64,000 nt of DNA from a virus. The stretch spans positions 1-64,000 of the IMG/VR virus record IMGVR_UViG_3300016482_000025. One strand, written 5' to 3'. A model generated the notes under the pieces. That model had not been told where the DNA came from and did no database searches. It worked only from the letters and a program-made list of their open reading frames with translations. Numbering within the stretch: the stretch's first letter is position 1; each line of letters begins with the position of its first letter. Both the position numbers and the translations under genes were made by a program. Below are positions 18,091 through 63,945 of the stretch, piece by piece.

Positions 18091-18492
18091 ATGAATATGG
18101 ACCGAAAGCTTGCATCTATTCGTGTGATTGACGCCATTGATCCTATTCCGGGTGCCGATGCAATTGATGTTGCTACTATCGGTGGTTGGAAGGTTGTGGT
18201 CAAGAAGGGTGAATTCAATCCAGGCGACATGTGTGTATATTTTGAGATTGATTCTTGGATTCCCAAGGACGTTGCACCTTTTCTTTTCAAGGGTCGTGCT
18301 TATAATGGTGTCGAAGGTGAGCGTCTTCGCACGGTGAAGCTTAAGGGTGTTACATCACAAGGATTACTTTTACCATTATCAGTTTTAGGTGAAATTGTTG
18401 AAATCAAAGGAAAGAAATATATAAATATTCCTGATAGTAAATCTACGGGAATAGAAGATGATAATTTACAAAATACAGAACAAAATAACTAA
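18091..18492 (+). CDS. RNA ligase (DRB0094-like family), N-terminal fragment of a split gene
   Basis: KLASIRVIDAIDPIPGADAIDVATIGGWKVVVKKGEFNPGDMCVYFEIDSWIP...LKGVTSQGLLLPLS is the N-terminal module of this ligase family; the frame then runs into low-GC homing-endonuclease DNA and stops. Confidence 0.65.
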   Translation: MNMDRKLASIRVIDAIDPIPGADAIDVATIGGWKVVVKKGEFNPGDMCVYFEIDSWIPKDVAPFLFKGRAYNGVEGERLRTVKLKGVTSQGLLLPLSVLGEIVEIKGKKYINIPDSKSTGIEDDNLQNTEQNN

Positions 18493-19165
18493 TAAAATTT
18501 ATATAGGAAAGACTTCTAAATCATTAGAAATTAGATGGAAAAATCATTTAAAATGCGTAAATAAAAAAATCAATAGATGTTTATATGATTCAATAAACAA
18601 ATATGGTATTAATAATTTTATTATAGAAGAATTGTGTAAAGCAACAAAAGAAAATATTAATGATTTAGAAAAATTTTATATTAATGAATATAATAGTTTA
18701 TATCCTAATGGTTATAATATGACAAATGGTGGTGATGGTGGATATACACTAGAAAAATGGTCTAAAGAAGATAGAGAAAAATTATATAAAAAACAAGGCG
18801 AAAAAAGAAAAGGTAAAAGATCATCAGAATGGAGACAAGCAATTTCTTTAGGTTCTATAGAAAGAGAAAAAAATAAAACTATAGAACAAAAGAAAATAAT
18901 TGCTAATAAAATAAGTAAAACTTTAAAAGAAAAAAATATTAAACCACCGTTAAAAATTATGCTTGGTGAAGATAACCCAAATTATAATGATATACCTTTA
19001 GATTCTATTTTAAATATGATAAAAAATAATAAAAATTTAAAAGAAATAGCAAATTATTATTCAGTATCTAGAATAACTATTTCTAATAAACTCAAACCTA
19101 GTGAAAAAACATTTACACAATGGAGAAAATACTATGGCCTTATTGGAAATTATAGAAGGTCTTGA
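18458..19165 (+). CDS. GIY-YIG homing endonuclease inserted in the RNA ligase gene
   Basis: IYKIQNKITNKIYIGKT...YNMTNGGDGG (GIY-YIG core); Lys-rich NUMOD-like C-terminus; markedly lower GC than flanks; TATAAATA at 18420-18427. Confidence 0.8.
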   Translation: MIIYKIQNKITNKIYIGKTSKSLEIRWKNHLKCVNKKINRCLYDSINKYGINNFIIEELCKATKENINDLEKFYINEYNSLYPNGYNMTNGGDGGYTLEKWSKEDREKLYKKQGEKRKGKRSSEWRQAISLGSIEREKNKTIEQKKIIANKISKTLKEKNIKPPLKIMLGEDNPNYNDIPLDSILNMIKNNKNLKEIANYYSVSRITISNKLKPSEKTFTQWRKYYGLIGNYRRS

Positions 19166-19886
19166 TCTTACTGAAATGCTTGGTATTCAGAAGTATGAGA
19201 AGCCTCTACCGGGTTCTCTTGCTGGTAAGGTTCGCGGTAATTTTCCGTCTTTCATTCGCAAGACGGATCAGGAGCGCATTCAGAATCTAAAGAAGGAGCT
19301 TGGTTTTTGGGTATTTGGTGGCATTCGTTGGGAAGTCACTGAGAAGCTTGACGGGTCTTCCATGACTGTGTATCATCGTTCTTATACACAAGAAAGCGGT
19401 GTTGTTATTGATGTTGGGGTTTGTTCTCGCAATTTCGATCTTGCTCCACCGGAGTCAGAATTCTATCGTGAGAATGCTTTCTGGCAAGTAGAACGTAAGC
19501 TTGATATTGTCACTAATCTAATCAAGTATGGCATGAACATTGCTCTACAGGGTGAGCTTGTTGGTCCTGGCGTGCAGGGTAACAAGTATGGTCTAACCGA
19601 ACTTGATTTTTATGTCTTTGACATTTGGGATATTGACAAACAGTGTTATGTGTCACGTTCTGACCGTTACCATATCGTTGATCTTTTGGGCTTGAAGATG
19701 GTTCCAGTTATCAACACTGGTCTTGTTATTGATGAAGATTTTGCACACGGAATTATTAATTATGCAGATGGACAATCTATGATTGGCAATAAGTCTGCGC
19801 GTGAGGGATTGGTGTTCAAGTCTTCTTGTGGTCAATATTCTTTCAAGGCTATTTCCAACAAGTGGCTTCTTAAGAATGAGGATTAA
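19134..19886 (+). CDS. RNA ligase (DRB0094-like family), C-terminal catalytic fragment
   Basis: Own GGAG plus ATG 19134 lie inside the 3' end of the endonuclease ORF; LGIQKYEKPLP...FPSFIRKTDQERIQN...TEKLDGSS (KxDG nucleotidyl-transfer motif). Confidence 0.7.
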   Translation: MALLEIIEGLDLTEMLGIQKYEKPLPGSLAGKVRGNFPSFIRKTDQERIQNLKKELGFWVFGGIRWEVTEKLDGSSMTVYHRSYTQESGVVIDVGVCSRNFDLAPPESEFYRENAFWQVERKLDIVTNLIKYGMNIALQGELVGPGVQGNKYGLTELDFYVFDIWDIDKQCYVSRSDRYHIVDLLGLKMVPVINTGLVIDEDFAHGIINYADGQSMIGNKSAREGLVFKSSCGQYSFKAISNKWLLKNED

Positions 19887-20565: not shown

Positions 20566-21222
20566 TCATAAAGATGGAACATTACCGGTTACATTTTTAC
20601 ATTTATCAAAATGATAACGTCGCATGTTTGTTCCACTACCAATTTTATTACAATGAGGACATTGTAAATTTTTAAATTTGTTTTTTAAACCTAAACTAAT
20701 ATTTTTACAATGTTCATCTGTTTTTTTATGAATTTTTATTGATTGACTTATTTTCATTTTTGTTTGCTCGGTGTGTTTTTTTCCAAACATAAAATGTTTC
20801 TCACCATAGTATTTTTTTATACTCTCAGAAATCTTTTGCTTTACTTCCTCTCTTTTTGATGGGTTTAATTCACCATATAAATCTTTTCTTTTTTTAGCTG
20901 ATTCGCTCATTTTTATTTTTGTTTCTTCTGTAATGTTATAAACTCTACCACCCAAACCACCACCGGTTTCAGGAATTAAATTCAAATATTCTTCTGATTC
21001 TACAATATTATTGATTTTAGAAAAATTTCTAGCAAAAATACATAAATCTTTTTTATTTTCTGATTCAAAAATTATATGAGTTGTAATATCATTACCATAT
21101 TTTTGTAAATGTTCTTTCCATATTTTTCCAGAACCTTTGTAATTAAATGGATTATTTTTAGTTATTCCAACATATTTTTTGTTTGTTAAGTTGTGAATTT
21201 TTAAATATAAGTAATAAACCAT
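20566..21222 (-). CDS. GIY-YIG homing endonuclease (Seg-like)
   Basis: VYYLYLKIHNLTNKKYVGIT...YKGSG, NUMOD3-like GKKHTEQTKMKIS, C-terminal CPHCNKIGSGTNMRRYHFDKC zinc finger; low GC; opposite strand to its neighbours. Confidence 0.8.
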   Translation of the reverse strand: MVYYLYLKIHNLTNKKYVGITKNNPFNYKGSGKIWKEHLQKYGNDITTHIIFESENKKDLCIFARNFSKINNIVESEEYLNLIPETGGGLGGRVYNITEETKIKMSESAKKRKDLYGELNPSKREEVKQKISESIKKYYGEKHFMFGKKHTEQTKMKISQSIKIHKKTDEHCKNISLGLKNKFKNLQCPHCNKIGSGTNMRRYHFDKCKNVTGNVPSL

Positions 21223-28509: not shown

Positions 28510-28596
28510 GCCCGAATGGCGGAATGGCAGACGCGGCGCGCTCAAAACGCGCTCCCTTCGTGGGTGGGGGTGGGGGTTCAAGTCCCTCTTCGGGCA
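28510..28596 (+). tRNA. tRNA-Leu (anticodon CAA), class II
   Basis: Acceptor GCCCGAA/TTCGGGC; anticodon arm GCGCG-CTCAAAA-CGCGC; long variable arm; T loop TTCAAGT; CCA encoded at 28597-28599; own promoter 28471-28499. Confidence 0.85.
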
Positions 28597-29093
28597 CCAT
28601 TTCTTGAACAATAAGTATCTGTTTGTGAGTGACAATTAGGACACAAATAACGGAGATTTGTTATTCTATTATCCGTATTGATACCATTGATATGATCAAT
28701 ATGTAAAGTTAATTTTTTATTATTCCAATATTCTGTAAGCCCACATTCTTTACATTGTTTTTTTAAACCATATTCATCTAATAATCTATTTAAAGCAGTA
28801 GATGTTAAATGAACATCTTCTTTTAAAGATGAATGAATTGTATGTTTTGTGTTTTTTATTGATTGATTTTTTATAATTTTTGATGTTTGTTTGGTCAACC
28901 CTTTAGACCAACCTTGACCTGAAAAATGTGAAACATCTAATTCATATTCAATTATTTTATTTTTAATTGTTTTAAAATTACCACCTTTTAAAACTAAGTT
29001 TAAATGTCGTAAAACATCTGATATACTTTTTGATTGTTGTATTAAAGGCTGTAATAATTCTTTTGTATAATTATTTTTCTTTGGCATACACAT
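28578..29093 (-). CDS. HNH homing endonuclease
   Basis: HIDHINGINTDNRITNLRYLCPNCHSQTD; low GC; start taken at ATG 29093 (MCMPKK) after AAGGA; the 3' end overlaps tRNA-Leu(CAA) on the other strand. Confidence 0.8.
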   Translation of the reverse strand: MCMPKKNNYTKELLQPLIQQSKSISDVLRHLNLVLKGGNFKTIKNKIIEYELDVSHFSGQGWSKGLTKQTSKIIKNQSIKNTKHTIHSSLKEDVHLTSTALNRLLDEYGLKKQCKECGLTEYWNNKKLTLHIDHINGINTDNRITNLRYLCPNCHSQTDTYCSRNGARRGT

Positions 29094-29098
29094 ATTCC

Positions 29099-29127
29099 TT
29101 GACAATAAATGTGTTTACCTATATAGT
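29099..29127 (+). promoter_or_regulatory. sigma70-type promoter for the tRNA operon
   Basis: TTGACA, 17 nt, TATAGT; the tRNA starts 8 nt downstream. Confidence 0.6.
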
Positions 29128-33876: not shown

Positions 33877-34109
33877 TGATGAATATATACCATTTTGCTA
33901 TTGACATTGGACAATGGGATTGTGATAATTGGGTTGCTGTTGCTGATGATATAGAAATTGCAAAAGAAAAGGTCATTCATACTTGGAAACAAAGATATGG
34001 TGGACCAATTCAAGAAAATGTTGATAGGTTTGTCAATCAGTTAAATAATGCGTCAGTAGAGATTATTGATATTGACGGTGCCGCAAATGTGTGGCAATCT
34101 TTTGATTAA
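33876..34109 (+). CDS. hypothetical protein
   Basis: 77-aa ORF. Confidence 0.45.
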   Translation: MMNIYHFAIDIGQWDCDNWVAVADDIEIAKEKVIHTWKQRYGGPIQENVDRFVNQLNNASVEIIDIDGAANVWQSFD

Positions 34110-34110
34110 C

Positions 34111-34156
34111 GGGGAAGCCGCTAAGATGGTGGATTAGCACCGGATTTCAAAACCGC
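34111..34156 (+). pseudogene. tRNA 5' half remnant with a UCA anticodon loop
   Basis: GGGGAAG-CC-GCTA-AGATGGTGGAT-TAGC-A-CCGGA-TTTCAAA-ACCGC; no T arm or 3' acceptor strand follows; the HNH gene starts 33 nt downstream. Confidence 0.4.
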
Positions 34157-34162
34157 TTTTGT

Positions 34163-34188
34163 CTAAATACTTTAAAAAAGGTGTTTAG
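34163..34188 (+). promoter_or_regulatory. hairpin abutting the HNH start codon, with late-promoter-like CTAAATAC in its 5' arm
   Basis: CTAAATAC (34163-34170) pairs with GTGTTTAG (34181-34188); ATG at 34189. Confidence 0.4.
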
Positions 34189-34614
34189 ATGAAACAAAGA
34201 CATAACAATTTTACAGATGAAGAATTAATAGAAGCATATAATGAATTAAAACATTTGGGGAAAATAGCACATAAATTTAAGGTTCCTCATATACAAATTT
34301 GGCGTAAATGTCAAAAATTAAATTTACATTTTAAAAATGGTGGTAATAACGAAAAAATTAATCTAAATGAAATTTTAGAAGGTTTTCATGGTTATTATCC
34401 AACAAATAAATTAAGAAAACGAATAATAAAAGAAAAAATATTACCTTACGAATGTGCGAAATGTGGTATTCACAAATGGAATGGTTGTGATATAGTGCTT
34501 CAATTAGATCATATAAATGGTGAATCAACAGACCATAGGTTAGAAAATTTGAGATTGTTGTGTCCTAATTGTCATTCTCAAACTGATACATGGTGTGGAA
34601 AAAATAAGGGCTAG
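34189..34614 (+). CDS. HNH homing endonuclease
   Basis: QLDHINGESTDHRLENLRLLCPNCHSQTD; low GC; paralog of the gene at 28578-29093; last 7 nt overlap tRNA-Tyr. Confidence 0.8.
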   Translation: MKQRHNNFTDEELIEAYNELKHLGKIAHKFKVPHIQIWRKCQKLNLHFKNGGNNEKINLNEILEGFHGYYPTNKLRKRIIKEKILPYECAKCGIHKWNGCDIVLQLDHINGESTDHRLENLRLLCPNCHSQTDTWCGKNKG

Positions 34615-34690
34615 TAGTCCGTTAAAGACGCGGGAGTGACTGTAAATCACTTGCTTAATTGCTGGCGTGGCGCGATACCACGATAGCCCA
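34608..34690 (+). tRNA. tRNA-Tyr (anticodon GUA), class II, non-canonical T loop
   Basis: Acceptor GGGCTAG/ATAGCCC (6 bp plus a mismatch); anticodon arm AGTGA-CTGTAAA-TCACT; T arm CGTGG-CGCGATA-CCACG lacks TTC; CCA encoded. Confidence 0.55.
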
Positions 34691-34702
34691 CCAGTTTTTA
34701 TT

Positions 34703-36690: not shown

Positions 36691-36764
36691 GGGCCGGTAG
36701 CTCAGTTGGCTAGAGCGGGAGACTCTTAATCTCTAGGTCGTGGGTTCGAATCCCACCCGGCCCT
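36691..36764 (+). tRNA. tRNA-Lys (anticodon CUU)
   Basis: Acceptor GGGCCGG/CCGGCCC; anticodon loop CTCTTAA; T arm GTGGG-TTCGAAT-CCCAC; no encoded CCA. Confidence 0.85.
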
Positions 36765-36771
36765 CATAGAG

Positions 36772-36822
36772 CCTAGAAGTTATAAATAGCAATGGCAATA
36801 AGACTAATTTATAACTTCTAGG
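36772..36822 (+). promoter_or_regulatory. 16-bp perfect hairpin sequestering the endonuclease RBS, with TATAAATA in its 5' arm
   Basis: CCTAGAAGTTATAAAT (36772-36787) pairs with ATTTATAACTTCTAGG (36807-36822); TATAAATA at 36781-36788; AGGA at 36820-36823; TTG start at 36830. Confidence 0.6.
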
Positions 36823-36829
36823 ATTAATT

Positions 36830-37444
36830 TTGTATTACACAATCTATAAAATAACAAATAAAATTAACAATAAATTCTATATTGGAATGCATAAAACCAA
36901 AAATTTAAATGATGGTTATATGGGTTCTGGTAAACTCTTGAAACGTGCTATTAAAAAACACGGAATTGAAAACTTTATTAAAGAAATTCTATTCATTTTT
37001 GATAATGAACAGGATATGATTAATAAAGAAAAAGAATTAGTAGAAGTATCAGAGCAATCTTATAACCTTTGTGAAGGTGGTAAAGGTGGTTTTGGTTTTA
37101 TAAATGCTAATGGTCTTGGTGGAACACTTGGTTATAAATGGAGTGATTATTATAAAAATCATTTTAGAAAAAAAGCACAAGAACAATATGAAAAATGGAC
37201 TGATGAAGATTGGAATAATCATTCTTCACAAATAAAAAATGGAATAATAAACCGTAAACCATCATTTCTTGGTAAAAAACACACAGAAGAAACCAAACAA
37301 AAAATGAGAAAATCTAAAAATATTGGTATAAAAAATCCAAGTTTTGGTTCTATGTGGATTACTAATGGAATAGATAACAGGAAGATAAAAAAACTTGAAA
37401 CCATTCCTGATGGGTGGTATAAAGGAAGAAATAAGGGGTCTTAG
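36830..37444 (+). CDS. GIY-YIG homing endonuclease
   Basis: YYTIYKITNKINNKFYIGMHKT...GYMGSG; NUMOD3-like GKKHTEETKQKM; low GC; the last 10 nt overlap tRNA-Ala. Confidence 0.8.
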   Translation: MYYTIYKITNKINNKFYIGMHKTKNLNDGYMGSGKLLKRAIKKHGIENFIKEILFIFDNEQDMINKEKELVEVSEQSYNLCEGGKGGFGFINANGLGGTLGYKWSDYYKNHFRKKAQEQYEKWTDEDWNNHSSQIKNGIINRKPSFLGKKHTEETKQKMRKSKNIGIKNPSFGSMWITNGIDNRKIKKLETIPDGWYKGRNKGS

Positions 37445-37507
37445 CTCAGATGGGAGAGCGGTAGCTTTGCAAGCTATAGGTCATCGGTTCGATCCCGATA
37501 GGCTCCA
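37435..37507 (+). tRNA. tRNA-Ala (anticodon UGC)
   Basis: Acceptor GGGGTCT/AGGCTCC with G3-U70; anticodon loop TTTGCAA; T arm ATCGG-TTCGATC-CCGAT; CCA encoded. Confidence 0.85.
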
Positions 37508-37525
37508 CCAGTTTAGGATTATATT

Positions 37526-38130: not shown

Positions 38131-38454
38131 ATGAATAATCCTTACGTTAAGCTTGATGATATGGAAGTGCGTGATGAAAATTGTAAGATTGCAATTACAG
38201 AGATTTACAAGGAAATTTTAAAGCTTGAATCTTCAATTGCTGCTGATGAAGAACAGCTAGAGCAATTGATTAGTGAAGTGGGTAAGGAAAAGGTTGTTTT
38301 CCTATATGGAAATTACATGGCTCAGAATTACTCTTATCTTTCTGCCATGAAGCATACATTTTACTTTTTGACTGGAATTCCTTCTTCGCGCATTCTTATT
38401 GACTTGACAGAAGAGGATAAGAAGAGTATATTCAGCTACGAGAAAGAGGAATAA
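38131..38454 (+). CDS. hypothetical protein
   Basis: 107-aa ORF. Confidence 0.45.
   Translation: MNNPYVKLDDMEVRDENCKIAITEIYKEILKLESSIAADEEQLEQLISEVGKEKVVFLYGNYMAQNYSYLSAMKHTFYFLTGIPSSRILIDLTEEDKKSIFSYEKEE
38404..38432 (+). promoter_or_regulatory. sigma70-type early promoter
   Basis: TTGACA, 17 nt, TATATT. Confidence 0.5.
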
Positions 38455-38484
38455 ATATTGACAACCAACTAAATAGGTGTCAAT

Positions 38485-38670
38485 ATGCAACCCAAGAAAC
38501 ATTTCTTTATTTCTCATTTTGGAGATAAGAGCGTCGTTCATCATACTGATGATGGTGGGCAATCGTTTAAACAACAACATTTCTATTCTAATAGAGTTTT
38601 GGATTTGAATAATTTTGCCAAGAGTCTTGAAAAGAATGGATATGAAGAAGTAAATCCTTGGTCTAGATAA
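38485..38670 (+). CDS. hypothetical protein
   Basis: 61-aa ORF downstream of promoter 38404-38432. Confidence 0.4.
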   Translation: MQPKKHFFISHFGDKSVVHHTDDGGQSFKQQHFYSNRVLDLNNFAKSLEKNGYEEVNPWSR

Positions 38671-38678
38671 AATATTAT

Positions 38679-38751
38679 CTGTGTGTAGCTCAGTTAGGAG
38701 AGTGCTGGTTTTGGAAACCAGAGGTCGTTGGGGCAGGACCAACCACGCAGA
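38679..38751 (+). tRNA. tRNA-Pro (anticodon UGG), non-canonical T loop
   Basis: Acceptor CTGTGTG/CACGCAG; anticodon arm CTGGT-TTTGGAA-ACCAG; T arm GTTGG-GGCAGGA-CCAAC lacks TTC; CCA encoded. Confidence 0.65.
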
Positions 38752-38759
38752 CCAGTTTA

Positions 38760-38870
38760 TTATACAGAGAGCAAATAGCCTGTTATACTCAAGACACTTC
38801 CGTAGGGTATAACTCACGTAAATAGAATGGGATTTGTCCGTTCGGGTTAGGGAAGTGCTGGCTGTATGAT
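38760..38870 (+). ncRNA. candidate structured RNA downstream of tRNA-Pro
   Basis: Nested long-range helices ATACAG (38762-38767)/CTGTAT (38862-38867) and CACTTCC (38795-38801)/GGAAGTG (38851-38857); no ORF. Confidence 0.3.
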
Positions 38871-38965
38871 ACCTATAATGTAAAACGTCCAATAAGTAAA
38901 TTCGTGAAAAACCTTTTTGATGGCGGCGCCGCTGGCTCTAAGGTCACATTATAGGATTCTTTCTT

Positions 38966-40833: not shown

Positions 40834-41571
40834 TTAGTTAGAAAGTAAAGGGATGGAAATTGCATCTTCATGTTTCCATCCCTTTCGTATTCTTGATTGA
40901 TACGTATCTTTTTTTAACCATTCGGGTAATATAATTATTTCACCATTTTTTCTTTTATAAATGTTTGGTGGTTGTTTTATATTACCAGAATTGATACGTC
41001 CTTTTTTCCAAATATTAAAATCATAATTTTGGATGTGTGATTTTAATATTTGTTTATCTATTTGACCATCGTTTATCCACATTTTAGGTAATTTATTGCG
41101 TTCTGATAAATCATTACGTTTCAACCCTAAAGTTGTTGAAACGTAACCATTTTTGAATTTATTTTTTCTGGTAATGGAAAGATTCTTTTTTTGTTCATCT
41201 GTCCACTTATTACCATAATTTGGATTTTTTTCACCAGATATATGACACGAATATGTTTTTCTAAAATAATCATATAACTTAGAATTATATCTCTGATGGT
41301 GTTTGTTCTTCATTTTAAACGAATGTAATGCAAAACACATATTTTTTATATTTTTTGAATCACTACACATTTTTGGTAGTAGAAGATGACAAATATAATG
41401 TTCTCTTGCTGTTAATAATACAAGATTTTGTTTTGAATTATTCCCACCAAGAGATTTAGGGATTATGTGGTGAGATTCATAATATTGACCATCTTTCTTA
41501 GAACGCACTTGACTCTTAGCTTTAGATATGATAGAGTAATACCACGATGAATATTTGTTTTGAAGAAACAT
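40834..41571 (-). CDS. HNH homing endonuclease (Mob-like)
   Basis: ESHHIIPKSLGGNNSKQNLVLLTAREHYICH; NUMOD-like GEKNPNYGNKWTDEQKKNLS; low GC; opposite strand to its neighbours. Confidence 0.75.
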   Translation of the reverse strand: MFLQNKYSSWYYSIISKAKSQVRSKKDGQYYESHHIIPKSLGGNNSKQNLVLLTAREHYICHLLLPKMCSDSKNIKNMCFALHSFKMKNKHHQRYNSKLYDYFRKTYSCHISGEKNPNYGNKWTDEQKKNLSITRKNKFKNGYVSTTLGLKRNDLSERNKLPKMWINDGQIDKQILKSHIQNYDFNIWKKGRINSGNIKQPPNIYKRKNGEIIILPEWLKKDTYQSRIRKGWKHEDAISIPLLSN

Positions 41572-41584
41572 AAAAGGGATTCCT

Positions 41585-42058
41585 ATGACTAGTAAAAGTA
41601 TTTATGAAAATGCTGTTTTATGTGACATTGATGGAACGGTGGCTGATTGCAGCCACCGACTCCATTGGATTAAAAACAAGCCGAAGAATTGGATGGCATT
41701 CTATGCAGGAATACCAAACGATCAACCTATTCAGCCTACAATTGATGTTGTGTGGTTGATTATGAAGAAGAATTTCTATCAACCTAGAGTGGTGTTCTGT
41801 TCTGGTCGTCCTGCTGAATATCATGATGTTACTCGTCAATGGTTTGAAAAGTATATGCCTTGGGCTAACAAGTGTCCTTTGTATATGCGTCCTACTAAGG
41901 ATAGCCGTCAGGATTACATTGTGAAGGAAGAATTGCTTGCCAAGATCAGAGAAGATGGTTATAATCCTGTTCTAGCTTTCGATGATAGGCAGCAAGTGGT
42001 TGATATGTGGCGCCGTAATGGTCTTACGTGCTTCCAAGTAGCGGAGGGCAACTTTTAG
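41585..42058 (+). CDS. polynucleotide 3'-phosphatase (stand-alone homolog of the T4 Pnk C-terminal HAD domain)
   Basis: DIDGTVAD (DxDxT) and AFDDRQQVVDMWRRNGLTCFQVAEGNF, compared with T4 Pnk [27 protein letters not shown] as I recall it. Confidence 0.8.
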   Translation: MTSKSIYENAVLCDIDGTVADCSHRLHWIKNKPKNWMAFYAGIPNDQPIQPTIDVVWLIMKKNFYQPRVVFCSGRPAEYHDVTRQWFEKYMPWANKCPLYMRPTKDSRQDYIVKEELLAKIREDGYNPVLAFDDRQQVVDMWRRNGLTCFQVAEGNF

Positions 42059-42061
42059 TTA

Positions 42062-42111
42062 AAAATCTCCTAAAGCTAAATACTATGTAAAATAATGCTT
42101 TAGGAGATTTT
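42062..42111 (+). promoter_or_regulatory. 15-bp hairpin sequestering the endonuclease RBS, with CTAAATAC at the arm/loop junction
   Basis: AAAATCTCCTAAAGC (42062-42076) pairs with GCTTTAGGAGATTTT (42097-42111); AGGAG at 42102-42106; ATG at 42114; CTAAATAC at 42076-42083. Confidence 0.55.
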
Positions 42112-42113
42112 TA

Positions 42114-42764
42114 ATGTTTTACATAGTATATAAAACTACAAATTTAATAAACCATAAAATTTATATTGGAACACATAAAACTAAAGATTTAAATGATGAT
42201 TATCTAGGATCGGGTGTTTTTTTAAAAAAAGCTATTAAAAAATATGGTAAAAACAACTTTAAAAAAGAAATAATAGCAGTATTTGACAACGCAGAAGACA
42301 TGATGAAAGAAGAAAGAAAAATAGTTAATAAAAATTTTATTCTTCGTAAAGACACATACAATTATGAATTAGGTGGTAAAGGTGGTAAGATATGGACTGA
42401 TGATTTGAGACAAAAAATGTCTGAATCAAAGAAAGGACATATACCGTGGAATAAAGGTTTAAAAACTGGAAATTTTATGACAGAAGAAGAAAAACAAAAA
42501 AGAAGTCAAAAAATGTCTGGTAAAAATAATCATATGTTTGGTATAAACGTTTCTTCTATTATCGATGAAGAAAAAGATAAAGAGCGAAGACGCAAAATTA
42601 GCGAATCGAATAAAAAACCCAAAACAAAAACAGACGGTTATAAAAAATATGCATCTAATCGTTTTTGGATAGTTGACATAGAAGGAAATTTATGTCATGC
42701 TTGTTCAGAAAATGATGAACGTCTTGTTTCAGGAAAATTTAAAAGAGGAAGAAAATGGAAGTAA
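42114..42764 (+). CDS. GIY-YIG homing endonuclease
   Basis: FYIVYKTTNLINHKIYIGTHKT...DYLGSG; NUMOD3-like repeats; low GC. Confidence 0.8.
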   Translation: MFYIVYKTTNLINHKIYIGTHKTKDLNDDYLGSGVFLKKAIKKYGKNNFKKEIIAVFDNAEDMMKEERKIVNKNFILRKDTYNYELGGKGGKIWTDDLRQKMSESKKGHIPWNKGLKTGNFMTEEEKQKRSQKMSGKNNHMFGINVSSIIDEEKDKERRRKISESNKKPKTKTDGYKKYASNRFWIVDIEGNLCHACSENDERLVSGKFKRGRKWK

Positions 42765-43607: not shown

Positions 43608-44183
43608 CTATTTTTTATTATGAGGCTTCCATGCTTTTCTTCCTCTGATCCATCCTTCTAAAATTTTATTATGAAATTCTTCTGTTTCTGAATTATATTG
43701 TTTAGATATAGAAAAATCAGGGGAAGTAAGCCATACTAAATTTTTCTTTTTATCTCTAAGTTTTTGTCTATATTCTTCCGTTACATTAATAATACGTTTT
43801 TTATATCTTTCTTTATAAATTTCTGTATTATTAATGTAATGTTCTTTAATTGATTTTGATATTTTTTGTTTTGTTTCAGAAGATAACACAATTCCTTTTC
43901 TTAAGGAACCACCTTTACCACCTTGACATATGTTATATGTTGTTGATAAATTACAGAAGTCTTCATTGACTAATTCTTTTTCTTTATTAATCATATCTTG
44001 TTCATTATCAAATATAAACAATATTTCTTTAGTGAAATTATGAATACCATATTTTTTTATAGCACGCTTTAACATATTACCAGAACCAAGATATTCATCT
44101 TGGAGATTATTAGTCTTATGCATACCCACATAAATTTTTGAGTTGACTAAACATGTGGTTTGGTATATGGTATAATAAGTCAT
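43608..44183 (-). CDS. GIY-YIG homing endonuclease
   Basis: YYTIYQTTCLVNSKIYVGMHKT...EYLGSG; shares a near-identical block KEILFIFDNEQDMINKEKELV with the gene at 36830-37444; low GC; CTAAATAC at 44212-44219 on the minus strand. Confidence 0.8.
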   Translation of the reverse strand: MTYYTIYQTTCLVNSKIYVGMHKTNNLQDEYLGSGNMLKRAIKKYGIHNFTKEILFIFDNEQDMINKEKELVNEDFCNLSTTYNICQGGKGGSLRKGIVLSSETKQKISKSIKEHYINNTEIYKERYKKRIINVTEEYRQKLRDKKKNLVWLTSPDFSISKQYNSETEEFHNKILEGWIRGRKAWKPHNKK

Positions 44184-44239
44184 TGTTTAAACTCTGAAAA
44201 TGATTTCAGATGTATTTAGGAGTAAGTGTCATTAAGCCT

Positions 44240-46854: not shown

Positions 46855-47176
46855 AGAAGATAGAAAGTGGCCTTTTGAGAGATTGGATAAAATGACAATC
46901 TCTCAAATTTACGATTTGGTTGCCACACTTGATACTGTTATTGCTGAAACCGCAAATGAATTGGGGTGTGAGGCTGATAACGAAGCAATTCTTGAAGCAA
47001 TCTATAAGCTAAAAAATAAAAAAGTAAAAGCGGAAGCTGTTGTTAAGGCTTTTGATAATGGTTATAATGCTGGATATGCAGCAGGAAAGAATGCTGGTGA
47101 GCTTTCAACCTTGACAGACATTCGTGATAAGGTTAATATGGCTATAGAAAACGCAATTCTTGATAGGGGTGGTTAA
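46847..47176 (+). CDS. hypothetical protein
   Basis: Start moved to ATG 46847 (MNEEDRK). Confidence 0.45.
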   Translation: MNEEDRKWPFERLDKMTISQIYDLVATLDTVIAETANELGCEADNEAILEAIYKLKNKKVKAEAVVKAFDNGYNAGYAAGKNAGELSTLTDIRDKVNMAIENAILDRGG

Positions 47177-47670
47177 TGAGTAATCCTGTTGTTTTTATGC
47201 TTATTGGGGTTCCTGGCTCTGGTAAGTCCACGTATGCAAAGCAATTTCTTGAATTGTATCCTAACTTTGTTTACATTTCCACGGATCATTATGTTCAGAA
47301 GTATGCATACGAGAATGCTACTACGTATGATGCTGTCTGGTCTAACATGATCGGTGAAGCTGAAACTTTCATGAATACTCTTCTGGAAGAGTCCATTCGT
47401 GATGGTAAGAATATCATTTGGGATCAAACTAATCTTTCCGTGAAGAACCGTGCCAAGAAGCTTTCCAAGTTTCCTGACAATTACAGGAAGGTTGCTGTTT
47501 TCTTTGAGGTTCCTTCTAAGGAAAACCACAAGTTTTTTCTTTATTCTTCGGAACGTGCTGGTAAGAATATTCCTGAGAATGTGGTTGAAAATATGATCAA
47601 TTCCATTCAGCGTCCTACACGCGAAGAAGGTTTTGATGATATCTTCACCTATTCAATTGAAAATAAATAA
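47176..47670 (+). CDS. polynucleotide 5'-kinase (stand-alone homolog of the T4 Pnk N-terminal domain)
   Basis: P-loop LIGVPGSGKSTYAKQF; later IWDQTNLSVKNR, compared with T4 IISDTNLNPERR as I recall it; 164 aa with no phosphatase domain. Confidence 0.65.
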   Translation: MSNPVVFMLIGVPGSGKSTYAKQFLELYPNFVYISTDHYVQKYAYENATTYDAVWSNMIGEAETFMNTLLEESIRDGKNIIWDQTNLSVKNRAKKLSKFPDNYRKVAVFFEVPSKENHKFFLYSSERAGKNIPENVVENMINSIQRPTREEGFDDIFTYSIENK

Positions 47671-53722: not shown

Positions 53723-54424
53723 TTATTCTCCTAATAATTTATTCCTTCTCTCTGAGAAATTCTTAAATAATTCTTCATGATTAGAAAGGCCACTGTTTTT
53801 AAATAATCCTTGAACATGATTCATATCCATGTTCCTTACTGCTTCAAGACCATGTTTTTCAGCACCGGGATTTTGTTGAAACACAGTTTTAAATACATGA
53901 GTAGAAGCATTTTCTGGTCTAGAAATTAACGAATGTTTTTCATCAATATCAGGACCATAATCCTTATGTCCACCTTGGGCACGAAAATGGAAAGCACCAC
54001 CAGAGTCAACAGAGTGTAATTCACCTGTCTCTTTATGGCGCTCAATGTTATCATGTTCCAAACCAACAATATCCCAATTCTTGGTTAGAATAGCTGCATG
54101 ATACATTTTACCAATCGTATGTTGTTGATCAGTATTCAAATGAGCAAAATCAGAAGGATGCATTCTTTCTAATTTGTCATTCCAAGGTGTAACAACAGAA
54201 TGCTTACCATTTACCACAGAATAAGACGGTTGTAAAGTCTTAATTCCCATGTGTTCGTGAATTTTTCCTGTTAAATCTTCAACCTTGGCTTGATCAGCAT
54301 TTTGGTAATGTTTAACATAAAACTTTTTACCTGATTCACTGTCAACATGAACGCCGCCCGGATTAGAACCTAGACGGTCGCCCATTTTTTGTAATTCTTC
54401 TTGTAATTGTTTAAATGATTTCAT
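53723..54424 (-). CDS. atypical kinase-like protein with capsid-targeting-like N-terminus
   Basis: MKSFKQLQEEL; LGSNPGGVHVDSESGKKFYVKHY (Gly-rich loop plus Lys); TKNWDIVGLEHDNI (catalytic-loop-like D..N); SVDSGGAF (DFG-like). Confidence 0.45.
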   Translation of the reverse strand: MKSFKQLQEELQKMGDRLGSNPGGVHVDSESGKKFYVKHYQNADQAKVEDLTGKIHEHMGIKTLQPSYSVVNGKHSVVTPWNDKLERMHPSDFAHLNTDQQHTIGKMYHAAILTKNWDIVGLEHDNIERHKETGELHSVDSGGAFHFRAQGGHKDYGPDIDEKHSLISRPENASTHVFKTVFQQNPGAEKHGLEAVRNMDMNHVQGLFKNSGLSNHEELFKNFSERRNKLLGE

Positions 54425-54445
54425 GAGACACCTTTTTTATTGTAT

Positions 54446-55018
54446 TTATGGCGCCTCTGCTACTTCAACCATATCGCTTGGGTTTCTATAGAAACGATGA
54501 TTTCCAATTACAACCGTTCTTGTAAAATTCCTAAAATCCCTAGGAACGGTTCTACCTGAATGGAAGTAGCGACTTCTATCAGTCACGTCCAACAGGATTT
54601 CACGGTCATACAAGGCGATCCAAGCAAGGACTAGGCTTCTATCCCAAACCTCACCAGAAGGCATCCTATGGCGCCTGGAAGTCCACGAAAACTGTCCTGG
54701 CCTGAATACCTCACGGCAGATGTTTTGCCTGTCTTGTGCGCGATTCATTGTTACATTAACAACGGCGATTTGTCCTAACATACGTTCGCCTCGCGCTTCA
54801 TGGTAGATGTTTTGTGCCAAACACACAAGGTTCCTTTCGTTAAAGGCGTTTCTAGGTAGAATGGCAATATGAGCATTAACTAGATGCTCCATAAATCTTT
54901 CGTAGTTAGATTCTGTCTCCCATGGATGAAAAGTATTCGCTACCGCTTGAGACGTAGGCACTACCAATGTTAGAAACGCCATCGTCAGTAGCAGAGCTAC
55001 CTTCTTTAGCTTCTTCAT
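54446..55018 (-). CDS. SleB-like cell wall hydrolase with signal peptide
   Basis: MKKLKKVALLLTMAFLTLVVPTSQA; LAQNIYHEARGE...GQIAVVNVTMNR...PGQFSW. Confidence 0.7.
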   Translation of the reverse strand: MKKLKKVALLLTMAFLTLVVPTSQAVANTFHPWETESNYERFMEHLVNAHIAILPRNAFNERNLVCLAQNIYHEARGERMLGQIAVVNVTMNRAQDRQNICREVFRPGQFSWTSRRHRMPSGEVWDRSLVLAWIALYDREILLDVTDRSRYFHSGRTVPRDFRNFTRTVVIGNHRFYRNPSDMVEVAEAP

Positions 55019-58871: not shown

Positions 58872-59127
58872 CGTATGAATATGCTGCTCTAATCTTTGAC
58901 TTACGGTTTGTGTCTCGCATAGCCGTTTCCACAGAATTACGATCAAACTTACGAATAGCTTCATTACATACAGAAATGATAGCTTCTAGATTGTCACGAT
59001 AATTCTTGCGAATATTCACATTCACGGTATCATCAAACATACCACGGATTTGATTTTCAATCACTGGCGGAATATTTGCCTTCACAAAAGATGTAGCCTT
59101 TGTAATCTTATCCTCATTCGTCAACAT
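58864..59127 (-). CDS. hypothetical protein
   Basis: 87-aa ORF between gp55 and gp47. Confidence 0.45.
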   Translation of the reverse strand: MLTNEDKITKATSFVKANIPPVIENQIRGMFDDTVNVNIRKNYRDNLEAIISVCNEAIRKFDRNSVETAMRDTNRKSKIRAAYSYDD

Positions 59128-59689
59128 AATCTAACTCCTGTTTCTTACGTCTCTTTATCTTACTATTCTCTTTCTTGACTGTCAACTTGGATTCGAAGTC
59201 ATCAACAAAGTTTGTTATAAAATCATTATCAATTTTCATGTTGCTGATAACAGATTCATCTTCATCCTTGAAGTCAGCAACACCCATATGAAGAATCTCA
59301 CGTTCTAGGACTTTATGCTTAATATAAAGTTGCTTTTTCTCTTTCTGAATACGACGCAGAAAGGCATACCAAATAATTTGTGTAAAGTAAGCAAACGGAT
59401 TACTATACTTTTCTTTATCAAAATTGTTTAAATACACAAGACAATTTTCAATACCGTCACCAACCATTTCTTCACGGAAAGGATAATTTGCAAAGTTATG
59501 TTTATATGATAATCGTGTGGCGATATTATAAAGACATTCACCTATGTAATCAGGAACACGCGGCTGTTGTTTACCAGCAGATTCATATTCTTTACATTTC
59601 TCTTGATAGTCACTAAGAGCCTTCAAGAAGTCTGCATTGTTTACATAGTGTTGTGTTTTTTTAGTGGATTTGTCCGGTGTATTCTTCAT
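59114..59689 (-). CDS. gp55: late-transcription sigma factor gp55
   Basis: RVPDYIGECLYNIATRLSYKHNFANY...NPFAYFTQIIWYAFLRRI matches my recollection of T4 gp55; size about 190 aa; position next to gp47. Confidence 0.8.
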   Translation of the reverse strand: MKNTPDKSTKKTQHYVNNADFLKALSDYQEKCKEYESAGKQQPRVPDYIGECLYNIATRLSYKHNFANYPFREEMVGDGIENCLVYLNNFDKEKYSNPFAYFTQIIWYAFLRRIQKEKKQLYIKHKVLEREILHMGVADFKDEDESVISNMKIDNDFITNFVDDFESKLTVKKENSKIKRRKKQELDYVDE

Positions 59690-59990
59690 CTTGTAGCAAT
59701 TCTTCCTCACTATCCATTTTAATTATAGACTGATAATAATCAAAAAAATCTTCTGTAGGTGGATTATACGATATAATGTGGTTTTTGTCAATAGGAATTT
59801 CAACCCCTTCTGTATAAGGCATCCACCTATCAAGCTGAAAAGATAGTTTGTTTTCCCTTAAAATCTTCACAACATAATAGGGATTATGAAGTATAACAAC
59901 ACCGTTCTTTTCAGTGATCTTTTCAGCAAGAATTTCTTCCCCCGTGCTAATTTTTATCAGCAATGGCTTCTCTTGAAAGCTGGATATCAT
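59661..59990 (-). CDS. hypothetical protein (UvsW.1 position)
   Basis: Small ORF immediately after uvsW; overlaps both neighbours. Confidence 0.4.
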   Translation of the reverse strand: MISSFQEKPLLIKISTGEEILAEKITEKNGVVILHNPYYVVKILRENKLSFQLDRWMPYTEGVEIPIDKNHIISYNPPTEDFFDYYQSIIKMDSEEELLQDEEYTGQIH

Positions 59991-61941: not shown

Positions 61942-61970
61942 ATTATAACAACCCTTTAAACACCTGTCAA
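61942..61970 (-). promoter_or_regulatory. consensus sigma70 promoter upstream of uvsY
   Basis: Minus strand TTGACA, 17 nt, TATAAT, inside the 3' end of gp3. Confidence 0.6.
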
Positions 61971-62486
61971 GCGTTTAATTTGCATTTTCGCGTATTTAAA
62001 TACAACTGTGGCTTCAACGAATTCAATTTTTGAATCACGCGAATCAAACACCAAATCAGAGATAGCGTGTGGAAACATATCTGTGAATACGATTTCCATT
62101 GACGGATTACGTGAGCTACTGTATATGAGTAATGTGCCATCAGAATAAACACCCTCACCAGACATTGCAGGAGCCGCTACAAGGCGTCTGTGTTGCTCAT
62201 ATGAGTCAGGGAAGCCAATGCCATTCATCCAGTTATAAATCTCGATATAGTTTTGAAAATCTTCATCCACCTTGAATGTGATGGTGAAGTCATTATATTC
62301 TAGATGATCACCAGCGATGGGTAGTTTTTTAAATGGATTAGGTAATGGAGCGAACCCTAGTTTTCTTCCAGGCACATTCACCGATTGGACGAAAAAATTT
62401 GTGTTTGGTAACTTTTTAATACCAAATTTAAACCCCACGCGGGAAAGAAAATTCTTATTAATGGGTTGACTTAGCTTACTACTCAT
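61956..62486 (-). CDS. gp3: gp3 tail tube terminator / sheath stabiliser
   Basis: 176 aa, the same length as T4 gp3 as I recall it; tail-tube-family-like NFFVQSVNVPG...DFTITFKVDEDF; sits directly after gp23, the position I recall for gp3 in marine T4-like phages. Confidence 0.6.
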   Translation of the reverse strand: MSSKLSQPINKNFLSRVGFKFGIKKLPNTNFFVQSVNVPGRKLGFAPLPNPFKKLPIAGDHLEYNDFTITFKVDEDFQNYIEIYNWMNGIGFPDSYEQHRRLVAAPAMSGEGVYSDGTLLIYSSSRNPSMEIVFTDMFPHAISDLVFDSRDSKIEFVEATVVFKYAKMQIKRLTGV

Positions 62487-62504: not shown

Positions 62505-62512
62505 GTATTTAG
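62505..62512 (-). promoter_or_regulatory. late-promoter-like motif upstream of gp3
   Basis: Minus strand CTAAATAC, with 18 nt between the motif and the ATG. Confidence 0.45.
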
Positions 62513-63937: not shown

Positions 63938-63945
63938 TATTTATA
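63938..63945 (-). promoter_or_regulatory. T4-type late promoter upstream of gp23
   Basis: Minus strand TATAAATA, with 28 nt between the motif and the ATG; AAGGAG RBS between them. Confidence 0.65.

What the first reader, a model, noticed from the sequence alone, without database searches (positions are those of the whole stretch)
36772..36832. Homing endonuclease RBSs sequestered in hairpins that carry late-promoter motifs (I-TevI-style temporal gating)
A perfect 16-bp hairpin lies upstream of the GIY-YIG gene at 36830 (36772-36787 pairing with 36807-36822). It buries the AGGA ribosome-binding site, and its 5' arm contains TATAAATA (36781-36788). The same design recurs at 42062-42111, a 15-bp stem burying AGGAG with CTAAATAC at 42076-42083. 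It recurs again at 34163-34188, where CTAAATAC is itself the 5' arm. CTAAATAC also precedes gp3 (62505-62512), and TATAAATA precedes gp23 (63938-63945), so both are plausible gp55-dependent late promoters. In T4, I-TevI, lysozyme and soc are silenced on early read-through transcripts by such hairpins. They are translated only from late transcripts that start inside the hairpin.
Basis: partly seen in the sequence, partly recalled or inferred. Interest (0 to 1): 0.65.

Follow-up and report, generated by a model that had tools for sequence, protein, structure and literature searches.

The report
Late-promoter hairpin locks on homing endonuclease genes
In this uncultured T4-like phage, four selfish nuclease genes that lie inside early transcription units each start behind an RNA hairpin that hides the ribosome-binding site and carries a late-promoter motif, which is the timing lock already known from phage T4 and so a well-supported but ordinary new example.

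Summary
The hairpins at 36772-36822 (16 bp perfect), 42059-42114 (18 bp perfect, longer than reported) and 34157-34194 (17 bp with G-U pairs) exist. Each pairs the Shine-Dalgarno sequence and/or start codon of a homing endonuclease gene (HEG). Each holds TATAAATA or CTAAATAC placed so that a T4-type late start (6 nt after the motif) falls in the loop. Perfect hairpins this long never appeared in 200 shuffles.

The motif MTAAATAM is depleted overall, yet 10 of its 11 copies sit 9-64 nt upstream of ORF starts, including gp23, gp3-like and uvsY. gp55 is encoded in the window.

The HEG at 36830 is a full-length SegB homolog (43% identity). T4 segB has the same hairpin with CATAAATAC. Fifteen environmental SegB-like leaders keep TAAATA almost invariant (14 of 15) while the stem covaries: 10 of 17 pairs show compensatory changes, 96.9% of cells are paired, and 0 of 500 shuffles match.

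Antisense HEGs and canonical late genes lack significant leader structure.

It is a new member of a known kind (I-TevI, e, soc, segB, mobE). No transcript or translation data exist.

The parts
36772..36787 (+). 5' arm of the leader hairpin of the SegB-like gene; contains most of the late motif
   Evidence: Perfect 16-bp complement of 36807-36822. Whole leader folds at -19.3 kcal/mol, z -4.5.
36781..36788 (+). TATAAATA, putative gp55 late promoter; inferred +1 near 36794, in the loop
   Evidence: TAAATA is kept by 14 of 15 homologous leaders. T4 spacing -13..-6 from PMC1524935.
36807..36822 (+). 3' arm; ends in CUAGG and so buries AGG of the SD AGGA (36820-36823)
36830..37444 (+). SegB-like GIY-YIG/NUMOD3 homing endonuclease gene with a TTG start; its stop codon lies inside the downstream tRNA-Ala
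   Evidence: phrog_314 E 4e-42, NUMOD3. 43% identity to T4 SegB over the full length, E 9e-46. tRNA-Lys 36691-36765 and tRNA-Ala 37435-37510 flank it.
42059..42076 (+). 5' arm of the 18-bp leader hairpin of the second GIY-YIG gene
   Evidence: Leader folds at -24.1 kcal/mol, z -6.1. Lowest SD accessibility of 134 gene calls.
42076..42083 (+). CTAAATAC late-promoter variant; inferred +1 near 42088, in the loop
   Evidence: CTAAATA is the documented late motif of phage Aeh1 (PMC1524935). The same octamer precedes the gp3-like gene.
42097..42114 (+). 3' arm; buries AGGAG (42102-42106) and the first base of the ATG
42080..42129 (+). Alternative 13-bp hairpin (42080-42092 with 42117-42129) that pairs loop sequence with codons 2-5. 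It is a second lock, and its 5' arm also lies almost entirely upstream of the inferred +1.
   Evidence: The truncated leader folds at only -4.4 kcal/mol.
42114..42764 (+). GIY-YIG/NUMOD3 homing endonuclease gene
   Evidence: 55% identity to the SegB N-terminal domain.
34157..34194 (+). 17-bp hairpin (four G-U pairs) with CTAAATAC (34163-34170) in the 5' arm. The 3' arm covers AAGGUG and AUG 34189. Inferred +1 near 34175, in the 4-nt loop.
   Evidence: -15.1 kcal/mol, z -4.6. Relatives L105-L124 mostly keep xTAAATA at -24 to -32 with a small hairpin.
34189..34614 (+). HNH homing endonuclease gene
   Evidence: phrog_10822 E 1e-32.
18420..18453 (+). TATAAATA lies at 18420-18427. The 5' arm 18426-18433 pairs with 18446-18453 (CGGGAAUA, the SD). 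Inferred +1 near 18433.
   Evidence: -10.5 kcal/mol, z -2.6. SD accessibility rank 3 of 134.
18458..19165 (+). GIY-YIG homing endonuclease gene that splits an RNA ligase gene
54422..54459 (-). Same gate on a non-HEG gene (orf 53723-54424). The 5' arm is 54450-54459, ATAAATAC (54442-54449) is in the loop, and the 3' arm covers GGUG and the AUG.
   Evidence: -11.8 kcal/mol, z -3.85.
41598..41605 (-). ATAAATAC, read CATAAATAC with the preceding C at 41606, upstream of the antisense HNH HEG 40834-41571. No significant leader structure.
   Evidence: z -0.5.
44212..44219 (-). CTAAATAC upstream of the antisense GIY-YIG HEG 43608-44183. Only a 7-bp hairpin follows it.
   Evidence: z -1.5.
63938..63945 (-). 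TATAAATA upstream of the major capsid gene gp23 (62578-63909); reference late promoter
62505..62512 (-). CTAAATAC upstream of the gp3-like tail gene (61956-62486); reference late promoter
59114..59710 (-). gp55-like late sigma factor gene
   Evidence: phrog_234 E 1.3e-59.

Best explanation
These are temporal translational gates of the T4 type. The four plus-strand homing endonuclease genes (18458, 34189, 36830, 42114) are embedded in, and co-oriented with, tRNA and early transcription units.

On read-through transcripts, the sequence upstream of each gene pairs with the Shine-Dalgarno sequence and/or start codon, so ribosomes cannot initiate. A gp55-dependent late promoter (TATAAATA or CTAAATAC) lies in the 5' arm or at the 5' edge of the loop. 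RNA polymerase that starts there begins about 6 nt downstream of the motif, inside the loop. The late mRNA therefore lacks the 5' arm, the ribosome-binding site is open, and the nuclease is made only late in infection.

Shown here: the hairpins, their statistical excess, motif placement, loss of structure on truncation, structural covariation in homologs, homology to SegB, and presence of gp55.

Inferred: that the motif is an active late promoter, where +1 lies, that read-through transcripts exist, and that translation is actually blocked and then relieved.
For: 1. Stems of 16 and 18 perfect bp are the two longest hairpins in the window. None of 15 bp or more appeared in 200 shuffles.

2. Full leaders fold at -10.5, -15.1, -19.3 and -24.1 kcal/mol (z -2.6 to -6.1). 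Leaders starting at motif end + 6 fold at -1.5 to -4.4 kcal/mol (z about 0).

3. MTAAATAM is depleted (11 against 22 +/- 4 expected). Ten of its 11 copies lie 9-64 nt upstream of ORF starts in the right orientation, including gp23, gp3-like, uvsY and alt-like genes. gp55 is present.

4. The 36830 protein is 43% identical to T4 SegB over its full length. The T4 segB leader folds at -19.4 kcal/mol with CATAAATAC in its 5' arm.

5. In a covariance-model alignment of 15 distinct SegB-like leaders, 96.9% of cells are paired, 10 of 17 pairs have compensatory changes (47 cells), and 0 of 500 shuffles reach any measure. Slid controls pair in 35-46% of cells. TAAATA is kept by 14 of the 15.

6. In all 19 family leaders, every pair of the enclosing helix has its 5' base upstream of the inferred +1.

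7. [CTA]TAAATA occurs at -65..-15 in 35 of 66 distinct GIY-YIG homolog leaders, against 3.4% of background windows.

8. Controls: four antisense HEG leaders (z -1.5 to +0.4) and four canonical late-gene leaders (z -0.7 to +0.85) are unstructured.

9. Strong sigma-70-like promoters lie only on the plus strand upstream. The 36830 gene lies between two co-oriented tRNAs.

10. The mechanism is experimentally established for I-TevI, e, soc and mobE, and proposed for segB (PMC2988022, PMC3014915, PMC2330249).
Against: - There are no transcript 5' ends, no expression data and no cultured phage. Promoter activity and +1 position are extrapolated from T4 and Aeh1.
- At 36830 only AGG of the SD is paired and the TTG start is free, so the block may be partial.
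- A crude measure of TIR pairing to upstream sequence does not single out all four genes (ranks 1, 14, 17 and 53 of 134).
- No close relatives were found for the 42059 hairpin, so it has no covariation test.
- The covariation alignment was fitted to the structure by the model.
- Some cultured SegB-like homologs (phages Marzo and XG4) lack a significant hairpin.
- The original T4 segB paper saw no mapped promoter near segB.
Confidence: 0.8

Rival explanations
1. Constitutive attenuator. The hairpins hold HEG translation low at all times, and the TATAAATA-like sequence is not an active promoter. The original T4 segB paper argued this, because no promoter had been mapped there.
For: PMC2330249 states that no promoter maps near segB. 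The weak TTG or GTG starts in 6 of 19 family members also point to generally low expression.
Against: - TAAATA is kept by 14 of 15 leaders, while its pairing partner tolerates bulges and mismatches. It is therefore conserved for its sequence, not for pairing.
- The same motif precedes gp23, gp3 and uvsY and is depleted elsewhere.
- Its position always puts +1 past the whole 5' arm.
Confidence: 0.09
2. RNA processing or stability element of the tRNA operon. The long duplex just after a tRNA would be an RNase III or RNase E site, or a 3' protective hairpin, and its overlap with the RBS would be incidental.
For: - In the SegB-like family the hairpin begins 0-8 nt after the 3' end of a tRNA.
- Stems of 16-22 bp are in the size range of double-strand-specific RNase substrates (general knowledge).
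- The loop is unusually conserved.
Against: - The same design occurs at 18458 and 42114, which follow protein-coding genes rather than tRNAs.
- The 3' arm always carries the G-rich SD, with a pair that is invariably C-G.
- The late motif would be left unexplained.
- This reading is compatible with the gate as an added function rather than an alternative to it.
Confidence: 0.06
3. DNA-level palindrome. It would be a protein operator, a cruciform, or the boundary or target of the mobile cassette, and not an RNA structure.
For: - The element sits at the 5' boundary of the HEG cassette and moves with it between different tRNAs.
- I-TevI has an operator that overlaps its late promoter (PMC2988022).
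Against: - Sense-strand G-U pairs outnumber A-C pairs 7 to 2, and the 34157 helix needs four G-U pairs. This favours RNA of the sense strand.
- The stems covary freely in sequence, which is unlike a protein-binding site.
Confidence: 0.03
4. Intrinsic transcription terminators for the upstream genes.
For: The upper 11 bp of the 42059 stem are followed by TTTTTAATGTTTT.
Against: - The terminator scan reports none of these sites.
- The loops are 19-20 nt, the stems are A+T-rich, and there is no U-tract after 36822 or in the family.
- tRNA-Ala downstream of the 36830 gene requires read-through.
Confidence: 0.02

Closest known systems
T4 segB leader (GIY-YIG HEG in the T4 tRNA cluster; Brok-Volchanskaya et al. 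2008, PMC2330249; Edgell, Gibb & Belfort 2010, PMC2988022)
   Same: - The protein is homologous (43% identity over the full length).
- It is free-standing in a tRNA cluster, directly after a tRNA.
- The hairpin is of about -19 kcal/mol, buries the RBS and has xATAAATA in its 5' arm.
- The end of the ORF abuts or overlaps the next tRNA.
   Different: - Stem and loop sequences are unrelated.
- Here the motif is the canonical TATAAATA.
- Only the SD is buried, not the start codon.
- The start codon is TTG.
- The phage belongs to a distant T4-like lineage (gp23 at most 73% identical to any cultured phage).
I-TevI in the T4 td intron (Gott et al. 1988; Gibb & Edgell 2010, as reviewed in PMC2988022 and PMC3014915)
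   Same: The RBS is sequestered on early and middle read-through RNA, and a late promoter is placed so that late RNA lacks the 5' arm. This is the logic proposed here.
   Different: I-TevI is intron-encoded. Its gate also protects intron splicing, and it has an autorepression operator. No group I intron is detected here.
mobE of Aeromonas phage Aeh1 (Gibb & Edgell 2007, 2009)
   Same: - It is a free-standing HEG that splits a host gene (nrdA there, RNA ligase here at 18458).
- It has an RBS-sequestering hairpin and a late promoter.
- Aeh1 uses CTAAATA as its late motif (PMC1524935).
   Different: mobE is an HNH enzyme, whereas the 18458 gene is GIY-YIG. The hairpin here is modest (-10.5 kcal/mol).
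T4 lysozyme gene e and soc (McPheeters et al. 1986; Macdonald et al. 1984, via PMC3014915)
   Same: Late genes lying in early units, silenced by a leader hairpin whose 5' strand is encoded upstream of the late start. The non-HEG orf 53723-54424 fits this pattern.
   Different: The gene products differ, and the function of orf 53723-54424 is unknown.

Membership tests
T4-type late-promoter / RBS-sequestering hairpin gate (I-TevI, e, soc, segB, mobE) | Stable leader hairpin that pairs the SD and/or start codon | tested here: met
   Stems of 16, 18 and 17 bp plus a helix of 8+3 bp. Folding energies -19.3, -24.1, -15.1 and -10.5 kcal/mol; z -2.6 to -6.1.
T4-type late-promoter / RBS-sequestering hairpin gate (I-TevI, e, soc, segB, mobE) | gp55-type late motif placed so that +1 lies 3' of the 5' arm | tested here: met
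   Motif positions. +1 is inferred from T4 spacing (PMC1524935). All helix pairs lie upstream of +1 in 19 of 19 family leaders. Promoter activity itself was not tested.
T4-type late-promoter / RBS-sequestering hairpin gate (I-TevI, e, soc, segB, mobE) | Gene co-oriented within an early or middle transcription unit, so that read-through RNA exists | tested here: inconclusive
   The genes are flanked by co-oriented tRNAs, and 11-12/12 sigma-70-like promoters lie upstream on the plus strand only. No transcript data.
T4-type late-promoter / RBS-sequestering hairpin gate (I-TevI, e, soc, segB, mobE) | Phage encodes the late sigma factor gp55 | tested here: met
   59114-59710(-), phrog_234 E 1.3e-59.
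T4-type late-promoter / RBS-sequestering hairpin gate (I-TevI, e, soc, segB, mobE) | Translation occurs only from late transcripts | not testable with these tools
   Needs 5'-end mapping and reporter or toeprint assays.
SegB-type GIY-YIG homing endonuclease (gene 36830) | GIY-YIG catalytic domain plus NUMOD3 DNA-binding motifs, with full-length similarity to SegB | tested here: met
   NUMOD3 30.7 bits. GIY-YIG scores 21.6 bits, just under the Pfam cut-off of 22.6. phrog_314 E 4e-42. BLASTP to T4 SegB: 43% identity, E 9e-46, residues 1-200.
SegB-type GIY-YIG homing endonuclease (gene 36830) | Free-standing in a tRNA gene cluster, next to a tRNA | tested here: met
   It lies between tRNA-Lys 36691-36765 and tRNA-Ala 37435-37510. 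Homologs follow tRNAs of at least 10 identities.
SegB-type GIY-YIG homing endonuclease (gene 36830) | Site-specific cleavage at the tRNA T-psi-C sequence, and homing | not testable with these tools
   This is a biochemical and genetic property (PMC2330249).
Group I intron-encoded endonuclease (I-TevI proper) | ORF lies inside a self-splicing group I intron | tested here: not met
   Rfam at gathering threshold finds only tRNAs in the window. The insert between the RNA-ligase halves is no longer than the HEG ORF.
Intrinsic terminator | G+C-rich stem, short loop, U-tract | tested here: not met
   The terminator scan does not report these sites. Loops are 19-20 nt, and there is no U-tract after 36822.

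The most novel reading that the evidence does not exclude
The hairpin plus late-promoter gate is an integral, co-mobilised part of the SegB-like homing cassette. It arrives with the nuclease gene at whichever tRNA gene is invaded. The stem evolves freely by compensatory change.

The loop (AGCAATGTCAATAAGACT) is more conserved than the stem. This suggests a second function, for example an autorepressor operator or a leader element of the late mRNA.

If so, these selfish genes carry their own plug-in timing device, usable in any phage with a gp55-type late system.
Probability: 0.35. Interest if true: 0.45.

Novelty: new member of a known kind. Interest (0 to 1): 0.3.

Why it matters
This is the design that restricts homing endonuclease synthesis to late infection in T4. 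Here it is used four times in 64 kb of a phage only distantly related to T4 (gp23 at most 73% identical to any cultured phage). It is also widespread in environmental SegB-like cassettes, with clear covariation.

That gives the still only predicted T4 segB gate its first comparative support. It also supports TATAAATA and CTAAATA as late promoters in this lineage. Finally, it offers a simple annotation rule: a late motif inside an RBS-burying hairpin marks late-translated genes that sit in early units.

It does not reveal a new mechanism.

Tried and rejected
- **Near-DNA search.** A megablast search of the region against cultured phages matched only a tRNA, so no syntenic relatives were available.
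- **MAFFT alignment.** The direct alignment of the leaders put the 3' arms out of register by 2 columns, and RNAalifold recovered only 9 pairs. I replaced it with a covariance-model alignment.
- **Accessibility measures.** Two generic measures over 134 crude gene calls (mean unpaired probability of -14..-5; pairing of the TIR to upstream sequence) put 42114 first. They did not cleanly separate the other HEGs. Many weak structures score on these measures, and the 36830 SD sits at the very base of its stem. Shuffle z-scores of local leaders separated the classes better.
- **Relatives of the 42114 gene.** Searches in viral and metagenome contigs found no leader homologous to the 18-bp hairpin.
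- **Terminators.** Checked and rejected.
- **Group I introns.** Checked and rejected.
- **tRNA-like stretch upstream of the 34189 HEG.** The idea that it marks a split tRNA was not supported by Rfam and was dropped.
- **Cultured SegB-like homologs.** Phages Marzo and XG4 have the motif but no significant hairpin.

Full report
**What the window is.** The window comes from a T4-like myovirus with 37% G+C. On the minus strand at 53.4-63.9 kb it encodes gp23, a gp3-like tail protein, UvsY, a UvsW-type helicase, the late sigma factor gp55, and gp47 and gp46. The closest cultured capsid protein is that of Stenotrophomonas phage DLP6, at 73% amino-acid identity. There is no near-DNA match among cultured phages. 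From about 8 to 47 kb the genes, 13 tRNAs and all the best sigma-70-like promoters (11-12 of 12 matches) are on the plus strand. This region therefore looks like an early/tRNA region.

**Checking the observation.**

- *Hairpin at 36830.* The 16-bp perfect hairpin (36772-36787 with 36807-36822), TATAAATA at 36781-36788 and AGGA at 36820-36823 are as described.
- *Second hairpin.* It is 18 perfect bp (42059-42076 with 42097-42114), not 15. It buries AGGAG and the first base of the ATG. CTAAATAC starts at the last stem pair.
- *Third hairpin.* It extends to 17 bp with four G-U pairs (34157-34173 with 34178-34194) and covers both the SD and the AUG.
- *Late genes.* The motifs before gp23 and the gp3-like gene are on the minus strand, at the stated coordinates.

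In 200 dinucleotide shuffles of the window, no perfect hairpin of 15 bp or more appeared, against 4 observed. The expectation for 12 bp or more is 0.29, against 9 observed. The two leader hairpins are the longest in the window.

**What the genes are.**

- 36830-37444 and 42114-42764 are GIY-YIG/NUMOD3 homing endonuclease genes. 34189-34614 is an HNH endonuclease gene.
- The window holds eight such genes. The others are 18458-19165 (+), 20566-21222 (-), 28578-29105 (-), 40834-41571 (-) and 43608-44183 (-).
- The 36830 protein aligns with T4 SegB from residue 1 to 200 at 43% identity (E 9e-46). This also confirms the TTG start. Like segB, the gene sits inside a tRNA cluster directly after a tRNA.

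**The motif as a late promoter.**

- TATAAATA occurs 6 times and MTAAATAM 11 times. Neither is above chance, and MTAAATAM is depleted against 22 +/- 4 expected.
- Placement is what stands out. Ten of the 11 MTAAATAM sites lie 9-64 nt upstream of an ORF start in the right orientation, nine of them within 9-40 nt. They precede gp23, the gp3-like gene, uvsY, an alt-like ADP-ribosyltransferase gene, orf 53723-54424, two small ORFs and four HEGs.
- All four copies of CTAAATAC are so placed.
- In T4 the late promoter TATAAATA occupies -13 to -6. In Aeh1 the late motif is CTAAATA, starting at -12 (PMC1524935). Both variants are therefore documented, and +1 is expected 6 nt after the last A.

**How the gate fits together.** With that spacing, +1 falls at about 36794, 42088 and 34175. 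Each lies in its loop.

- *A fourth case.* TATAAATA at 18420-18427 overlaps the 5' arm 18426-18433, which pairs with CGGGAAUA (the SD) at 18446-18453 before the GIY-YIG gene at 18458.
- *Folding energies.* Full leaders fold at -10.5, -15.1, -19.3 and -24.1 kcal/mol (z -2.6, -4.6, -4.5, -6.1). The same leaders cut at the inferred +1 fold at -1.5 to -4.4 kcal/mol, with z near 0.
- *A second lock at 42114.* A 13-bp helix joins 42080-42092 to codons 2-5. Its 5' arm is also removed by a late start.
- *Controls.* The four antisense HEG leaders (z -0.5, -1.5, +0.4, -0.65) and the gp23, gp3-like, uvsY and alt-like leaders (z -0.7 to +0.85) are not structured.
- *A non-HEG case.* Orf 53723-54424 (-) shows the same gate, at -11.8 kcal/mol and z -3.85.
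- *Orientation.* Two antisense HEGs carry the motif without a strong hairpin (41598-41605, read CATAAATAC with the preceding C, and 44212-44219). This is expected if a lock is needed only where early read-through RNA exists. The contrast rests on four genes against four, and the 44183 leader does have a 7-bp hairpin.

**Comparative evidence.** I collected relatives of the HEGs from viral and metagenome contigs.

- *SegB-like leaders.* About 19 distinct SegB-like genes follow a tRNA within a few bases. The tRNAs have at least ten identities: Pro, Lys, Ser, Glu, Met, Gln, Asn, Asp, Gly and Ala. Each has a long hairpin with TATAAATA in the 5' arm (CTAAATA in one, CATAAATA in another), a conserved loop and a G-rich 3' arm.
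- *Covariation.* A covariance model realigned 15 distinct leaders. In that alignment 96.9% of cells are paired, and 10 of 17 pairs carry compensatory double changes (47 cells). None of 500 shuffles reached any measure. Sliding the partner by 1-3 columns gave 35-46% pairing.
- *Conservation for sequence.* TAAATA is kept by 14 of the 15 leaders, although its pairing partner shows bulges and mismatches. The one exception, L038 1265-1339, is a hairpin that follows another tRNA upstream of that locus's HEG.
- *Strand.* G-U cells outnumber A-C cells 7 to 2, a modest hint of sense-strand RNA.
- *Position of +1.* In all 19 leaders every pair of the enclosing helix has its 5' base upstream of the inferred +1. 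In 18 of them at least 6 of the 10 SD-zone bases are paired to that upstream segment.
- *Motif enrichment.* Across 66 distinct GIY-YIG homolog leaders the motif occurs at -65..-15 in 35, against 3.4% of background windows.
- *Other designs.* Other sub-lineages reach the same result differently. In some, a short arm just after the motif pairs with the AUG and first codons (L024, L025, L028, L035, L037, L082-L085). In others, a long-range helix joins CCTT...ATAAATA to TATTTATAAGG across a two-hairpin insert.
- *HNH relatives.* Relatives of the 34189 HNH gene mostly keep xTAAATA at -24 to -32 with a small hairpin.
- *T4 segB.* Its leader folds at -19.4 kcal/mol (z -7.3) with CATAAATAC in the 5' arm.

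**Comparison with what is known.** This is the mechanism shown experimentally for I-TevI, gene e, soc and Aeh1 mobE, and proposed for I-TevII, I-TevIII and segB (PMC2988022, PMC3014915, PMC2330249).

- The 36830 locus is effectively a distant segB locus.
- The 18458 locus resembles mobE, because the HEG splits a host gene. RNA ligase family phrog_968 matches at profile positions 6-130 in 18097-18492 and at 125-394 in 19134-19886.
- No group I intron is present, so these are free-standing genes.
- The terminator scan does not flag the hairpins.

**Limits.**

- Promoter activity, +1 positions, read-through transcription and the translational block are all inferred.
- At 36830 only three SD bases are paired.
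- Generic accessibility measures do not separate all four genes from the background.
- The 42059 hairpin has no homologs to test.
- The covariation alignment was fitted by a model built on the same structure.
- Some cultured SegB-like genes lack a significant hairpin.

**Verdict.** The finding is a new member of a well-known kind. Its main added value is comparative support for the segB-type gate and for the late-promoter variants of this phage lineage.

Noticed in passing
window 18097-19886: An RNA ligase gene (phrog_968) is split by the GIY-YIG HEG 18458-19165. The N-terminal part 18097-18492 matches profile positions 6-130 and the C-terminal part 19134-19886 matches 125-394. The HEG ORF overlaps both ends. 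No intron or intein signal was seen. The arrangement resembles nrdA/mobE in Aeh1.
   Followed up: partly
window 54422-54459 (-): A non-HEG gene of unknown function (53723-54424), next to a cell-wall hydrolase gene, has the same gate. ATAAATAC lies in the loop and the SD and AUG lie in the 3' arm (-11.8 kcal/mol, z -3.85).
   Followed up: partly
window 40847-40885, 41009-41052, 41114-41146, 43781-43839: Perfect hairpins of 13, 15 and 12 bp lie inside the coding sequence of the antisense HNH HEG 40834-41571. A 15-bp one lies inside the antisense GIY-YIG HEG 43608-44183. Seven of the nine perfect hairpins of 12 bp or more in the window are HEG-associated, against 0.29 expected in total. Some homologs elsewhere also carry internal hairpins. 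Their function is unexplained.
   Followed up: partly
window 37435-37444 and 34608-34614: The stop codons of the two tRNA-cluster HEGs lie inside the 5' end of the next predicted tRNA (tRNA-Ala, and ARAGORN's tRNA-Tyr). RNase P processing would therefore leave a non-stop mRNA. PMC2330249 proposed a similar second negative control for T4 segB.
   Followed up: no
A2/A3 alignments of L001-L061 and window 36788-36806: The loop of the SegB-like leader hairpin (AGCAATGTCAATAAGACT) is more conserved than the stem. It would form the 5' end of the late mRNA. A second function, such as an operator or a leader element, is possible but untested.
   Followed up: no
L154-L166, L181, L088-L094 (about 100 nt upstream of the HEG start): A conserved leader of about 85 nt. 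The CCTT...ATAAATA segment pairs long-range with TATTTATAAGG (the SD) around two hairpins whose loops are complementary (GUAAC/GUUAC). There is no Rfam match on that strand. The sequences are too similar to each other for a strong covariation test (3 compensatory pairs).
   Followed up: partly
window, e.g. upstream of 30209, 30697, 31534, 33221, 35536, 37526, 47734: A near-identical translation initiation cassette (TTTGAAAGGATTATATTATG and close variants) recurs before many small plus-strand early genes. The SD region of the 36830 HEG (AGGATTAATTTTG) resembles it.
   Followed up: no
window 41585-42058 and 47176-47670: The polynucleotide kinase phosphatase domain and a kinase-like domain are encoded as separate genes about 5 kb apart, with several HEGs between them.
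   Followed up: no
window 38679-38751 and 34608-34693: The tRNA callers disagree. Rfam finds a tRNA at 38679-38751 that ARAGORN misses; it lies inside a probably spurious minus-strand ORF (38302-38892). ARAGORN's tRNA-Tyr at 34608-34693 is not reported by Rfam even at E <= 1.
   Followed up: partly
L148-L151 and GIY-YIG N-termini generally: The conserved I-Y-K codons ATT-TAT-AAA of the GIY-YIG N-terminus are complementary to TATAAAT. In some homologs the late promoter itself pairs with codons 5-7. This makes the gate easy to evolve in this gene family.
   Followed up: no
window 34105-34160; L106, L109, L114-L116: A tRNA-anticodon-arm-like hairpin (CAGATTTSAAATCTG; in the window CCGGATTTCAAAACCG after a D-arm-like stretch) precedes the HNH HEG family of 34189. 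It may be a tRNA remnant at the insertion site. Rfam reports no tRNA there.
   Followed up: partly
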